This document shows, piece by piece, positions 21,270 through 36,730 of a DNA stretch of 64,000 bases. The notes under the pieces are model-generated. The model worked only from the letters and a program-made list of their open reading frames with translations. It did no database searches and had not been told where the DNA came from. The position numbers and the translations under genes are program-made. Position 1 is the stretch's first letter; every line of letters begins with the position of its first letter. The DNA comes from an uncultured Acidobacteriota bacterium (GTDB lineage: Bacteria > Acidobacteriota > Thermoanaerobaculia > Multivoradales > SZUA-115): contig CAWDVR010000005.1 in the NCBI GenBank assembly GCA_963805975.1, forward strand, positions 384,001 through 448,000. The letters are read 5' to 3'.

Positions 21270-22487
21270 CTAGCCGGCGTAGAGCTGCAGCTCTTCGGCC
21301 ACCGTGTCCGCCATCTCGATGCAGGTGGGCAGGTGCGGGTGGCGGAGGATGACGTGGCCGTCGGAGAGCAGGGTCTGGATCCAGTTGCGGCGTTGGGCGC
21401 CGATCGGCAGCAGGTCGACCGAGACGATGGCGTCGCCGAAGCGGCCGAGCAGGCGCTCGAGGCCCTCGACCCGCTGGATGCGGCCCTGGCCCTGGGCGCG
21501 CTTGAAGATCACGGCGCTGTTGTAGTGGCGTGCCACCTTCTGGCTGAAACGCCGGTGGCAGACGGCCTCGGCCCAGCCGGTGAAGACGTCGATGTCGCAG
21601 CCGTAGTTCATCAGCTCGGTCGAGCGCGCGCCGGGCGGGCGGGCGCCGATCTCGCCGAACACCGCTTCGCCGTCCGGCTTCAGGAACCACTCCATGTGGG
21701 TGAACCCGTTGGCAAAACCCAGCGCCCGGAGCACCGCCTGGCCCATCTCGCGGCCCGGGGCGAGATCCGCGCGGAACACGTCGCGTAGCGTCACCGTCAT
21801 CGGACTGATCCACTCCACCGTGCGCTGGAGGAGCGGCCGCGGCCGGTACCAGGCGATGTTGAAGTAGCGGATCTCGCCGTCCACGCAGATGGTGTCGAAG
21901 GTGTGCTCCTCACCCTCGATGTACTCCTCGACGCTCACCTCTTCGACGTGCTTCACCAGGGCGAGGACGCGCTCGAGCTCCCTGGCGTCGCCCACGCGGT
22001 GGGTGTCCTTCGAGCCCGCGCCGGCGATCGGCTTGACGATCAGCGGATAGCCGATGCGCTCGGCCGCGGCGCGCACCTCGCGGGCGGAGGCGGCGCGGGC
22101 GTGGCGCGGGGTGCGGATGCCGGCCGCGTCCAGCATCTCCTTCATACGGCCCTTGTCCCGGAAGGGCACGGTCTGTTCGACCGTCATGCCGGGCACGCCC
22201 AGCCGCTCGCGCAGGCGGGCGGCGAGCAGCATGCCGGGCTCCCACAGGCACTCCACGAGGTCGATGGAACGCGCGGCCGGGTGGCGGCGCACGGCGTCGA
22301 TCACCGCCTCCTCGTCCCACAGCGAGGGCACGTGCAGATAGGCGGCGAGGCTCTCGCGGACGCCAGCGGACAGGCCGGCGGCCGGTGTGTCCCCGACGCC
22401 GAGCACCCGGGCGCCCACCCGCGCCAGGCCGCGGGTGAAAAGCGTCATCTCCCACGGGTACGCCGGGGCGATCATCACCACGTTCAT
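21270..22487 (-). CDS. ATP-grasp domain protein (paralog A, L-amino-acid-ligase-like)
   Basis: FRDKGRMKE, PLIVKPIAGAGS, VEEYIEGEE, THMEWF, FGEIGARPPG. Confidence 0.9.
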   Translation of the reverse strand: MNVVMIAPAYPWEMTLFTRGLARVGARVLGVGDTPAAGLSAGVRESLAAYLHVPSLWDEEAVIDAVRRHPAARSIDLVECLWEPGMLLAARLRERLGVPGMTVEQTVPFRDKGRMKEMLDAAGIRTPRHARAASAREVRAAAERIGYPLIVKPIAGAGSKDTHRVGDARELERVLALVKHVEEVSVEEYIEGEEHTFDTICVDGEIRYFNIAWYRPRPLLQRTVEWISPMTVTLRDVFRADLAPGREMGQAVLRALGFANGFTHMEWFLKPDGEAVFGEIGARPPGARSTELMNYGCDIDVFTGWAEAVCHRRFSQKVARHYNSAVIFKRAQGQGRIQRVEGLERLLGRFGDAIVSVDLLPIGAQRRNWIQTLLSDGHVILRHPHLPTCIEMADTVAEELQLYAG

Positions 22488-22495
22488 AGCGGGCC

Positions 22496-23716
22496 TCAGT
22501 TGTATTCGACGCGCACCAGCGCCACCAGCCGCATCAGCGCCTTGTACACCGCCTCGGTGCTCTCGTGGCGGACCACGGCGTAGCCGTCGCCCTCGTAGCT
22601 GTCGGACTTGGGGGCGCCCGGCTTGGGGAGCTTGGCCTCGACGACCAGGGGGCCCAGCTCTTTCTGCGCCTGGTCGAGCCCGTGCACGGCCTTGACGCGG
22701 CCGCCGCCGGTGCCGCGGAAGAAGGCGGCGCCGGAGGCCCACTTGCGCGGCGGCGGGTTGAACTCGCCGAACACCATGAGCCGCGCCCAGGCGGAGAGGA
22801 AGTCGAACTCGTGCGCCACCGAGACCAGGGTGGTGATCTGGGCTCCCGGCGGCCGGGCCGCGACCTCGGAGATGGCGAGCGAGCCGTCGCGACGCCGGAA
22901 CCACTCGAGATGCGACAGGCCGGTCTCCATCCCCAGGGCCGTCAAGCCGCGGAAGGCCGCTTCTTTCACGTCGTCGAAACGGGGGTCCTCGCGCTCTCTC
23001 GGCAGCAGCACGCACCACTGGATCCAGGGGTTGTGCATGGCCTCGAGAGGCGTCGGCAGGTAGCGCGTCGAGGAGTACCAGACCGGCTTGCCGTGGATCG
23101 ACACGGTCTCGAACGAGTACTCGTCGCCGGTCATGAACTCCTCGAGCAGCACCGGGCGGGTTGGCGAGGGCGGGTTGACCTTGAGCGCCTCTTCGAGTGC
23201 CTCCAGCGTGCCGACGCGGAAGGTGGCCTTGGCGCCAGCGCCGTCCGGCGGCTTCACCACCAGCGGCAGGCCCACCTCGCGCGCGAAGGCGCGGGCCTCG
23301 TCCGCCGTGCCCGCCAGGCGATGGCGGGCGCAGGGCAGGCCGGCGTCGCGCAGCACGGTCTTCATACGGGCCTTGTCGCGGAAGTTCTTGGCCGCCTCGA
23401 CCCCCATGCCGGGGACGCCCAGGATCTCCCGCGCCTGGGCGAGGGGCACCTGGAGCTGCTCGAGCGCGCCCATCAGCCCGTCGAGCCCGCCGATCGAGCG
23501 GCCGAGCTCACGCGCCGCCTCGGCCAGGCGCACCGGGTCGAAGGCGTTCTCCACCCGCCGGTGGCCGGCGATCGAGGCGGCGAGAGTGGGTGGGATCTTG
23601 ACCGCCGGGTCCTGGGTGATGAGGCCGACGCGGACACCGGGCAGAGAGGCCGCGGCCTGCGCGAAGCGGGCCGTGGCCGGCATCAAAAACGGGGCTACGA
23701 AGACGACGTGGGGCAC
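22496..23716 (-). CDS. ATP-grasp domain protein (paralog B)
   Basis: FRDKARMK, PLVVKPPDGAGA, LEEFMTGDE, SHLEWF, SEVAARPPG; TATACT 8 nt upstream of the GTG. Confidence 0.9.
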   Translation of the reverse strand: MPHVVFVAPFLMPATARFAQAAASLPGVRVGLITQDPAVKIPPTLAASIAGHRRVENAFDPVRLAEAARELGRSIGGLDGLMGALEQLQVPLAQAREILGVPGMGVEAAKNFRDKARMKTVLRDAGLPCARHRLAGTADEARAFAREVGLPLVVKPPDGAGAKATFRVGTLEALEEALKVNPPSPTRPVLLEEFMTGDEYSFETVSIHGKPVWYSSTRYLPTPLEAMHNPWIQWCVLLPREREDPRFDDVKEAAFRGLTALGMETGLSHLEWFRRRDGSLAISEVAARPPGAQITTLVSVAHEFDFLSAWARLMVFGEFNPPPRKWASGAAFFRGTGGGRVKAVHGLDQAQKELGPLVVEAKLPKPGAPKSDSYEGDGYAVVRHESTEAVYKALMRLVALVRVEYN

Positions 23717-35466: not shown

Positions 35467-35509
35467 AGGCGGTGTATTATCCCCGCGATCCCGGCTTTGG
35501 AGAACCCGC

Positions 35510-36730
35510 ATGCATGTCGTCTTCGTCGAGCCCGCCTTCCCCTTCAACCAGCGCAAGTTCGTGCGCGGCCTGGCCGAGGTCGGAGCCAAGGTCACCGCGA
35601 TCGGGGAGGTGCCGGCCTCGGCCCTGCCTGCCGACCTCAAGCGAATGCTGCACGACTACGAGGAGGTCTCCTCGGTGGTGCACGAGGAGTCGCTGCTCGA
35701 GGCGGTGAGGAAGGTGCAGCGCCGTGGCTGGGTGGACCGGCTGGAGGCGACGATCGAGGCGCACGTGATGGCCGCCGCCCGCGTGCGCGAGGCCTGCGGC
35801 ATCCCCGGCACCTCGGTCGAGACCACCTATCTCTGCCGTGACAAGCCGGCGATGAAGGAGTTCCTGCGCCAGGCCGGCATCCCGTGCGCGCAGTCGGCGG
35901 CGGCCTCCTCGGCCGCCGAGGTGCGAGAGTTCGCCGCCCGCGTGGGCTTTCCCATCATCTTGAAGCCGAGGAGCGGCGCCGGGGCCTCCGGCACCGTCCG
36001 CGCCGACGACGAGCGGGAGCTCGAGGCGGCGATCGCCAGCCAGGGTTTCGAGCACGGCGCCTCGGTCGCGGTCGAGGAGTTCATCGACGGTCACGAGGGC
36101 TTCTACGACACCATCTCGATCGGCGGCGAGGTGGGGCACGAGTTCATCACCCACTACTACCCGCGCGTGCTCACCGCCATGCGCGAGCGCTCGCCGGCGC
36201 CGATGTTCATCGCCACCAACCGCGTGGACTCCGACGGCTACGACGAGGTCAAGCGCCTGGGGACGAAGGTGATCGAGGCGATGTCGATCGGCACCGCGGC
36301 CACCCACATGGAATGGTTCTTCGGCACCAAGGGCCTGAAGTTCTCCGAGATCGGCTGCCGACCGCCGGGGGTGGGCGCCTGGGACCTCTACACGGCCGCC
36401 AACGAGATGGACGTCTACCGGGAGTGGGCGGCGGCGATCGTCCACGGCCGCACCATGCAGCAGCCCAGCCGGCGCTACTCGGCCGGCATCGTCAACCTGC
36501 GGCCGGACCGCGACGGGCGGATCGTCCGCTACGAGGGCGTCGAGGAGATGGAGCGCGAGCTGGCGGAGTGGATCATCGACTACCACTTCCCGCCGGTGGG
36601 CTCGCGCACGCAGCCGGTCGAGGCCGGCTACATGGCCAACGCCTGGGTGCGCCTGCGCTACCCGGACTTCGACGAGCTCAAGCGCCTGCTCGAGCTGGTG
36701 GGGGAGCGGGTCAAGGTGCACGCGGCGTGA
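35510..36730 (+). CDS. ATP-grasp domain protein (paralog C)
   Basis: CRDKPAMKE, PIILKPRSGAGA, VEEFIDGHE, THMEWF, FSEIGCRPPG; RBS GGAG. Confidence 0.9.
   Translation: MHVVFVEPAFPFNQRKFVRGLAEVGAKVTAIGEVPASALPADLKRMLHDYEEVSSVVHEESLLEAVRKVQRRGWVDRLEATIEAHVMAAARVREACGIPGTSVETTYLCRDKPAMKEFLRQAGIPCAQSAAASSAAEVREFAARVGFPIILKPRSGAGASGTVRADDERELEAAIASQGFEHGASVAVEEFIDGHEGFYDTISIGGEVGHEFITHYYPRVLTAMRERSPAPMFIATNRVDSDGYDEVKRLGTKVIEAMSIGTAATHMEWFFGTKGLKFSEIGCRPPGVGAWDLYTAANEMDVYREWAAAIVHGRTMQQPSRRYSAGIVNLRPDRDGRIVRYEGVEEMERELAEWIIDYHFPPVGSRTQPVEAGYMANAWVRLRYPDFDELKRLLELVGERVKVHAA

What the first reader, a model, noticed from the sequence alone, without database searches (positions are those of the whole stretch)
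21270..36730. Three diverged ATP-grasp paralogs share a non-canonical E-x-(G/A)-x-RPPG motif and near-identical length
Seen: paralogs at 21270-22487, 22496-23716 and 35510-36730 (405-406 aa) share RDKxxMK, KPxxGAG, EE(F/Y)xxGxE, H(M/L)EWF and EIGARPPG / EVAARPPG / EIGCRPPG. The Asn of the usual ExN metal motif is Gly or Ala in all three. Established: L-amino-acid-ligase-type ATP-grasps often lack this Asn. Inference: retention of three diverged copies suggests a hetero-oligomer or sequential ligation of different residues, i.e. a defined short peptide. The fourth ligase (IDFAN motif) could attach or polymerise it.
Basis: partly seen in the sequence, partly recalled or inferred. Interest (0 to 1): 0.7.

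Follow-up and report, generated by a model that had tools for sequence, protein, structure and literature searches.

The report
Ancient three-ligase set beside glycogen genes
Three related amino-acid-joining enzymes sit beside this bacterium's glycogen-making genes and are kept together as a set in several bacterial phyla, where they likely add different amino acids step by step to make a compound nobody has yet identified.

Summary
In detail: all three genes, lengths and motifs are there (31-36% identical to each other). The motif is not unusual. It is the standard L-amino-acid-ligase (LAL) signature, also seen in solved RizA, BL00235 and BacD, and about 405 aa is the usual length for that fold. 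A, B and C are three old clades with members in at least five phyla. All keep the full LAL catalytic set, but their selectivity loops differ by clade. They are inherited almost all-or-none (6 of 7 positive genomes in an unbiased phylum sample; 32 of 37 in a cross-phylum set). B and A are mostly tandem, and one lineage has a full B-A fusion. Both stated refutations therefore fail. Product unknown; ordered amino-acid ligation is inferred. Not found in the papers searched. This scan has noted the same module on other DNA at least eight times.

The parts
21270..22487 (-). Ligase A, LAL-type ATP-grasp, 405 aa, clade A; starts 8 nt after the stop of B
22496..23716 (-). Ligase B, LAL-type ATP-grasp, 406 aa, clade B (sister to A+C); upstream partner of A, fused to A in one lineage
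25568..26833 (+). GlgC, ADP-glucose pyrophosphorylase; the only copy found in the genome
   Evidence: NF002772 and TIGR02091 over cut-off
26833..28302 (+). GlgA, glycogen synthase; the only close copy found in the genome; recurrent neighbour of B and C in other phyla
   Evidence: TIGR02095 over cut-off
31988..33262 (-). Ligase D, 424 aa, RimK/Ddl-like ATP-grasp with IDFANxCP; belongs to the core that also exists without A/B/C
33384..34519 (-). PF00756 esterase with an Ig-like N-terminal domain (weak Enterochelin_N). One base is missing near 33441 relative to the same-genus genome, after the conserved His; likely an assembly error
34516..35466 (-). Peptidase-S51-like protein (Pfam hit below cut-off; conserved WSAG); its stop overlaps the esterase start; mostly found with A/B/C
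35510..36730 (+). Ligase C, LAL-type ATP-grasp, 406 aa, clade C; divergent from the S51-like gene; its stop overlaps the GH57 start
36727..38175 (+). GH57/DUF3536 alpha-glucan enzyme; follows C in close relatives only
17775..19355 (-). MalQ (GH77 4-alpha-glucanotransferase); context gene, directly after A in some relatives

Best explanation
A, B and C are three old clades of L-amino-acid-ligase-type enzymes that keep the full catalytic residue set and are inherited as a set; they likely act one after another, each activating a different L-amino acid with ATP and joining it to the free amino group of a growing short peptide or aminoacyl compound. Shown: fold, catalytic residues, three clades, clade-specific selectivity loops, co-occurrence, B-A tandem order and B-A fusion. 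From known LAL chemistry: an acyl-phosphate intermediate, with the first substrate held by its alpha-amino group. Inferred: ordered action; that the starting acceptor comes from the D-esterase core (A/B/C depend on D in their distribution, not the reverse); that the S51-like protein removes the added residues again; and that the product is an intracellular compound made alongside glycogen.
For: Fold: the model of C (pLDDT 95.6) matches BL00235 3VOT (Z 35.7, rmsd 3.4, 377 aligned), RizA 4WD3 (Z 35.3) and YwfE/BacD (Z 30.6-31.5) best. Residues: PMC13579937 assigns RhiC Y208+E258 to the substrate amino group, R275+G278 to its carboxyl, and E258/E271/E78 to Mg. The counterparts, matched through the RizA/BacD alignments and motif spacing (C numbering Y216, E268, R284, G287, E280, E83, plus K112, K152, H266), are invariant in 55 of 55 A, 47 of 47 B and 67 of 67 C sequences. 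The same paper places selectivity in the omega- and C-loops, and these differ by clade: A WISP..LR and RRnWkqTL.SDG; B WIQW..PR and YEGeG; C wiSPq..TN and GYMANAW. Trees: each clade is one side of a branch (FastTree 1.0/0.925/0.948, 175 rows; IQ-TREE SH-aLRT A 99, C 100, B 80, 48 rows). Median identity is 54-62% within clades and 31-34% between. Co-occurrence: in 121 genomes drawn evenly from the phylum, A is in 7, B in 7, C in 6 and D in 6, and 6 have all four. In 49 D-anchored genomes, 32 have all three, 3 have two, 2 have one and 12 have none at E<=1e-95. B directly precedes A in 37 of 54 distinct adjacent pairs. Full-length B-A fusions with both active-site motifs occur in three 90% clusters (1 of 1, 3 of 3 and 12 of 15 members full length). 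Precedent: RhiM then RhiC are two LALs of one cluster acting in sequence (PMC13579937 abstract).
Against: No substrate, product or order is shown. All-or-none retention fits an obligate complex equally well. Extra stand-alone A- and C-clade paralogs are kept at unrelated sites in this genome and its family, so such enzymes can persist outside the trio. Exceptions exist: G167 (99% complete) has only A+B, on a 6.4-kb contig, and no close D; one closed genome (L139, G076) has C only. The S51-like gene was not found in three A/B/C-bearing genomes (G074, G078, G084), and one genome without A/B/C has it (G061). Glycogen linkage is frequent but not constant: an alpha-glucan gene lay within 5 kb of about 15 of 30 B genes with full flanks (rough de-duplication). 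The fusion is a single lineage (77-78% identical) and arises easily from tandem genes. B's support is only 80. Kin genomes are not independent, and two genomes recur between samples.
Confidence: 0.5

Rival explanations
1. A, B (and perhaps C) are subunits of one hetero-oligomeric ligase, derived from a homodimeric ancestor, and are unstable or inactive apart.
For: RhiM/RizA and RhiC, the closest solved type, are dimers (PMC13579937). B and A are tandem in 37 of 54 pairs and fused in one lineage with an 8-35 residue linker. Retention is nearly all-or-none.
Against: No clade has lost catalytic residues, which is common though not required in heteromers (general knowledge). C is usually in a separate transcription unit, and A and B are divergent in 9 of 54 pairs. 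Stand-alone extra A and C paralogs persist. The LAL LdmS is a monomer (PMC9486568).
Confidence: 0.2
2. The three act in parallel: each adds a different amino acid to the same acceptor (for example the product of D), giving a family of products, not one ordered peptide.
For: Donor-side loops differ by clade. Extra stand-alone paralogs could add further residues. A/B/C depend on D in their distribution.
Against: Parallel enzymes should be lost one at a time, yet one- and two-clade genomes are rare and several are fragmented assemblies (5 of 37). The B-A fusion suggests closer coupling.
Confidence: 0.18
3. The ligases build aminoacyl or peptidyl groups that end up on glycogen or a malto-oligosaccharide, with the PF00756 proteins acting as transferase and esterase on the glucan.
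For: The cluster is interleaved with the genome's only glgC and glgA. glgA is directly next to B or C in several phyla. The large esterase has an Ig-like N-terminal domain (weak PF11806). PF00756 includes acyltransferases (recalled, not from a call).
Against: About half of B genes, and most D genes (21 of 30), with full flanks have no alpha-glucan gene within 5 kb. Glucan binding of the N-terminal domain was not tested. Characterised LALs use amine acceptors (PMC9486568).
Confidence: 0.12

Closest known systems
L-amino acid ligases RizA/RhiM (4WD3), RhiC, BL00235 (3VOT), BacD/YwfE (3VMM, 3WNZ)
   Same: Whole three-part fold; H-x-E and E-x-[GA]-x-R-x-x-G motifs without Asn; amino-group Tyr/Glu pair; A-domain Glu; about 405 aa.
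   Different: Only 18-20% identical; PP after the catalytic Arg; clade-specific omega- and C-loops; three co-retained paralogs; context of glycogen genes, esterases and a RimK-like ligase, not an antibiotic cluster.
Rhizocticin pathway (RhiM then RhiC)
   Same: Several LALs in one cluster, acting in sequence, with selectivity set by the omega- and C-loops (PMC13579937).
   Different: Rhizocticin is a strain-specific antibiotic with phosphonate precursor genes. This set recurs across phyla, and its recurrent neighbours are glgA/glgC, esterases, an S51-like protein and GCS2-type ligases.
Cyanophycin system (CphA synthetase, CphB S51 cyanophycinase)
   Same: ATP-grasp ligases beside an S51-like hydrolase; a possible storage role.
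   Different: No CphA: TIGR02068 scores 40-41 bits against a cut-off of 850, and the proteins are about 405 aa. The S51 hit is below the Pfam cut-off.
RimK / Ddl-type ATP-grasp ligases (for D only)
   Same: Weak RimK-family and Ddl hits, and best fold hits RimK 5ZK6 and Ddl; an Asn in the metal motif.
   Different: D is 424 aa with a long helical C-terminal part, has D-x-x-N spacing, has no Pfam hit, and its model is low-confidence (pLDDT 68.8).

Membership tests
L-amino acid ligases (RizA/RhiC/BacD type) | ATP-grasp fold with N-terminal A domain and C-terminal C2 domain | tested here: met
   Model of C aligns over residues 1-406 with 3VOT, 4WD3 and 3WNZ at Z 31-36. Pfam ATPgrasp_N (A, B, C) and LAL_C2 (B, C) hit, below cut-off. 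A and B were not folded alone.
L-amino acid ligases (RizA/RhiC/BacD type) | Two Mg-binding Glu; carboxylate-binding Arg four residues after the second Glu, then Gly; no Asn | tested here: met
   E268, E280, R284, G287 invariant in all 169 A/B/C sequences; same pattern in the solved LALs; roles from PMC13579937.
L-amino acid ligases (RizA/RhiC/BacD type) | Tyr + Glu binding the alpha-amino group of the first substrate; conserved A-domain Glu | tested here: met
   Y216, E268 and E83 invariant. Y216 aligns with RizA Y220; RhiC Y208/E258/E78 are matched by position only, as the RhiC sequence was not aligned.
L-amino acid ligases (RizA/RhiC/BacD type) | ATP-dependent amide formation between free L-amino acids or peptides | not testable with these tools
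   Needs an enzyme assay.
Named LAL orthologue groups in NCBIfam (BacD, DdaF, PRK07206) | Score above the curated cut-off | tested here: not met
   BacD NF053745 31-37 bits vs 850; PRK07206 48-66 vs 302; DdaF 19 vs 840, listed for B only.
Ddl/RimK/GshB-type ATP-grasp ligases | E-x-N metal motif | tested here: not met
   For A/B/C the position is G or A in all 169 sequences. D has D-F-A-N and is the only candidate of this type.
Cyanophycin system | CphA: large two-site synthetase above the TIGR02068 cut-off | tested here: not met
   40-41 bits vs 850 for A, B and C; no hit for D.
Cyanophycin system | S51-family serine hydrolase beside the ligase | tested here: inconclusive
   PF03575 20.3 bits vs cut-off 23.9; W-S-A-G conserved in at least 95% of 58 homologs; specificity unknown.
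Multi-LAL antibiotic clusters (rhizocticin type) | Dedicated precursor-synthesis and export genes in the cluster | tested here: inconclusive
   None stood out among recurrent neighbour families of 40 + 80 loci, but gene calling was crude and only 17 representatives were scanned against Pfam.

The most novel reading that the evidence does not exclude
The module is an undescribed pathway that builds a defined non-ribosomal peptide with three LALs on a core made by ligase D, and couples it to bacterial glycogen as a covalent amino-acid decoration or primer that the esterases and the S51-like protein remove again.
Probability: 0.15. Interest if true: 0.85.

Novelty: new variant of a known kind. 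Interest (0 to 1): 0.5.

Why it matters
Characterised L-amino acid ligases mostly make antibiotic peptides in a few strains (14 characterised as of PMC9486568). A three-clade LAL set kept intact across Acidobacteriota, Myxococcota, Planctomycetota, Eiseniibacteriota, Binatota and some Actinomycetota, at the glycogen locus, points to a widespread unknown metabolite. It also offers three soluble enzymes with different pockets for peptide synthesis. The nested distribution (D-esterase core, then the A/B/C add-on) and the natural B-A fusion give a direct order of experiments. The motif that drew attention is itself ordinary.

Tried and rejected
Complex prediction on B + A with alignments of 43 and 49 rows: verdict 'no answer', score 0.00 in both runs, controls not folded; A-C, B-C and homodimers were not run (one job). 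The look-up of sequencing runs: no RNA holder listed. Rejected 'recent lineage-specific duplicates' and 'most genomes carry one copy'. Rejected 'one paralog is a pseudo-enzyme' at sequence level. Rejected length as a signal. Rejected the motif as non-canonical. The C-loop could not be aligned residue by residue to RizA D376: the HMM alignments to 4WD3 end at or before residue 353, so no substrate is predicted. The careful IQ-TREE search did not finish; quick trees without bootstrap were used, and no AU test was run. Three longer proteins with partial B joined to A (P0275, P0277, P0278) were left out of the fusion count as possible frameshift artefacts. In one search only 6 candidates per genome were scored; a re-check of 5 D-positive genomes with all candidates scored found no family-level hit (best 127 bits against 447 or more for members). 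The D fold search is weak. No GH13-type branching enzyme (TIGR01515) was found in this 96%-complete genome. Literature: searches listed no paper describing this cluster (judged from listings; passages of two hits read were irrelevant); one search returned nothing relevant. Iyer et al. 2009 (PMC3268129), a survey of ATP-grasp gene neighbourhoods that may describe it, was not held, and neither was the BacD structure paper I looked for. No supplements were read.
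Full report
Observation. The three ORFs are at the stated coordinates, 405, 406 and 406 aa, with all five listed motifs, and are 31-36% identical. A fourth ATP-grasp gene, D, carries IDFAN. The region also holds glgC, glgA, a PF00756 esterase, an S51-like protein, a GH57/DUF3536 protein and malQ. B-A, glgC-glgA, S51-esterase and C-GH57 are tightly spaced or overlapping pairs. The names on the closest protein hits point to Thermoanaerobaculia, Acidobacteriota. The genome has three more family members at unrelated sites: one A-clade and two C-clade.

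What the enzymes are. By sequence and by fold the closest solved proteins are L-amino acid ligases. RizA 4WD3, BL00235 3VOT and BacD/YwfE lead the sequence searches and the fold searches with a pLDDT 95.6 model of C (Z 35.7, 35.3, 31.5). Their alignments show the same H-x-E and E-x-[GA]-x-R motif without Asn, so the motif is canonical for this group. PMC13579937 (abstract, result passages and part 2 of the text read) assigns the RhiC residues that bind the substrate amino group (Y208, E258), its carboxyl (R275, G278) and Mg (E258, E271, E78). The matching positions are invariant in all 169 A/B/C sequences examined, so all three clades are probably active and take an alpha-amino acid or peptide as the activated substrate (inference). 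No curated family model is met. Lengths of 402-408 (A), 379-417 (B) and 404-419 (C) match an unrelated LAL-like outgroup (401-424), so length carries no information.

Three old clades. Among 50%-identity representatives, A, B and C fall on separate branches (44 rows, quick tree). Among 169 full-length proteins from fetched loci plus the six from this genome (169 of 300 profile hits kept after removing partial and duplicate ones), the 55 A, 47 B, 67 C and 6 outgroup rows are each one side of a branch. A 48-row IQ-TREE run gives SH-aLRT 99 (A), 100 (C), 80 (B) and 97 for A+C. Median identity is 54-62% within and 31-34% between clades. Twelve columns are at least 90% conserved in every clade with different residues, several of them in the omega-loop and C-loop regions that set selectivity in RhiM/RhiC.

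Co-occurrence. In 41 relatives, 26 have family members and 25 of these have three or more matches; all 26 have D. In the 11 relatives whose loci were fetched for all three, A, B and C were each present. In 121 genomes drawn evenly from the phylum (at least 90% complete, this genome included), A is in 7, B in 7, C in 6 and D in 6; six have all four, and G167 has only A+B on a 6.4-kb contig. I took 49 of 80 D-anchored genomes (47 not titled Acidobacteriota, 2 that are). Of these, 32 have all three, 3 have two, 2 have one and 12 have none. By phylum, all three occur in Myxococcota 16 of 17, Planctomycetota 7 of 9, Eiseniibacteriota 3 of 3, Binatota 1 of 1, Acidobacteriota 2 of 2, Actinomycetota 1 of 10, Pseudomonadota 0 of 3 and unlabelled 2 of 4. 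One 'none' genome (G078) has a frameshifted full set, and one 'C only' genome (G085) has further fragments at contig ends. The second refutation also fails. These samples contain kin, and two genomes recur between samples.

A and B are the closest partners. B directly precedes A in 37 of 54 distinct adjacent pairs; 9 are divergent A/B, 4 C>A, 3 divergent B/C and 1 A>B. A search of 712-2030 aa proteins returned 9 hits. Three are full B-A fusions of 819-851 aa with both catalytic motif sets, and their clusters hold 1, 3 and 12 full-length members of 1, 3 and 15. They are 77-78% identical, so this is one fusion event. It supports functional coupling but cannot separate a complex from consecutive steps.

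D with two PF00756 esterases forms a core that exists without A/B/C. In 301 genomes from the phylum of an Actinomycetota genome, D was found in 35 (three of them unpublished genomes: G208, G255, G327) and the A/B/C family in 3, all of which have D. Of 18 fetched D loci there, 15 have both esterases beside D with no A/B/C, one (G302) has the whole module, and two show neither esterase by this query. Most of these D proteins are only 43-48% identical to the window's and may be a sister subfamily, but D at 61-65% also occurs without A/B/C. The S51-like gene was found in 1 of the 11 'none' genomes that lack the family and in 0 of 5 further D-only genomes, but it was also not found in 3 A/B/C-bearing genomes. 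So A/B/C, usually with the S51-like gene, look like an add-on that needs the core. D cannot generally need their product.

Glycogen link. The window holds the genome's only glgC and only close glgA. In other phyla glgA is often the direct neighbour of B or C. Within 5 kb an alpha-glucan gene was found for about 15 of 30 B and 9 of 30 D genes with full flanks (rough count). The link is recurrent but not obligatory; shared regulation would explain it as well as shared chemistry.

Mechanism. Best reading (0.5): ordered ligation of different L-amino acids by three active LALs onto an amine acceptor from the D-esterase core, giving an intracellular short peptide or aminoacyl compound. Rivals: obligate hetero-oligomer (0.2), parallel addition to one acceptor (0.18), transfer onto glucan (0.12). 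The first two can both be true in part. No substrate can be named from these data.

Novelty. The enzyme type is known and the flagged motif is ordinary. The conserved three-clade set, its nested dependence on the D core and the B-A fusion were not found in six literature searches, but Iyer et al. 2009, the most likely earlier description, could not be read. Earlier notes of this scan describe the same module in at least eight other genomes. They are leads, not support; the counts above are from my own calls. Verdict: new variant of a known kind, interest 0.5.

Noticed in passing
window 23761-25425 (-): A 554-aa ORF with an eCIS core domain (PF13699) lies between B and glgC. The glgC-to-B start distance is 1852 nt here and 90 nt in the same-genus genome, so it is a lineage-specific insertion. 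Its C-terminal part has a KGHILN...LGG motif that recalls non-specific nucleases (recalled, not tested). The genome has five more eCIS-core hits.
   Followed up: partly
window about 28762-31770 (-): M1-family peptidase between glgA and D, with a frame change near 29565-29487; found at this site in five loci of the same family. With the one-base loss in the esterase, this suggests indel errors in the assembly.
   Followed up: partly
G000:C3:50996-52213, C6:219716-220933, C1:1400626-1401852: Three stand-alone family members (one A-clade, two C-clade) in housekeeping surroundings, with counterparts in several genomes of the family. The C1 copy belongs to a long-branched C subclade with altered N-terminal loop and E83 neighbours.
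   Followed up: partly
L059:8197-11938; L272:6888-10277: In two genomes the divergent C subclade sits in tandem with two further LAL-like ATP-grasp genes of another family: a second, separate three-ligase cluster.
   Followed up: partly
P0276, P0279 (994-996 aa), P0151, P0274: B-clade ligases joined to unannotated N-terminal regions of 240-590 aa without a Pfam hit of their own; P0276/P0279 begin with a GxGxxN-like segment. Possibly B-type enzymes recruited into other pathways. P0274's cluster also holds 406-aa members, so that extension may be a gene-calling artefact.
   Followed up: partly
G000:C4:327431-328171 and 336256-337359: The second small esterase, found in 51 of 80 D-anchored loci, is missing beside D in the window. 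A 34% homolog and a GCS2-type ligase (47%) lie 8 kb apart on contig C4.
   Followed up: partly
window 36727-38175; whole genome: No GH13-type branching enzyme (TIGR01515) was found in this 96%-complete genome; the GH57/DUF3536 protein after C may fill that role (weak hits to GH57 branching-enzyme models).
   Followed up: partly
window 19389-21168 (-): ECF sigma factor followed by two small unannotated ORFs, between A and malQ; not seen between A and malQ in L041.
   Followed up: no
window about 6000-12000: Low-GC stretch (55-60% against about 70%) with reversed skew and few long ORFs; possibly an rRNA operon. Not examined.
   Followed up: no
L028:1498-2487; L295:499-2328: A shorter, distant D relative (about 330 aa, 28-30% identical) occurs in genomes that lack C; in one it is next to a small esterase homolog.
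   Followed up: no
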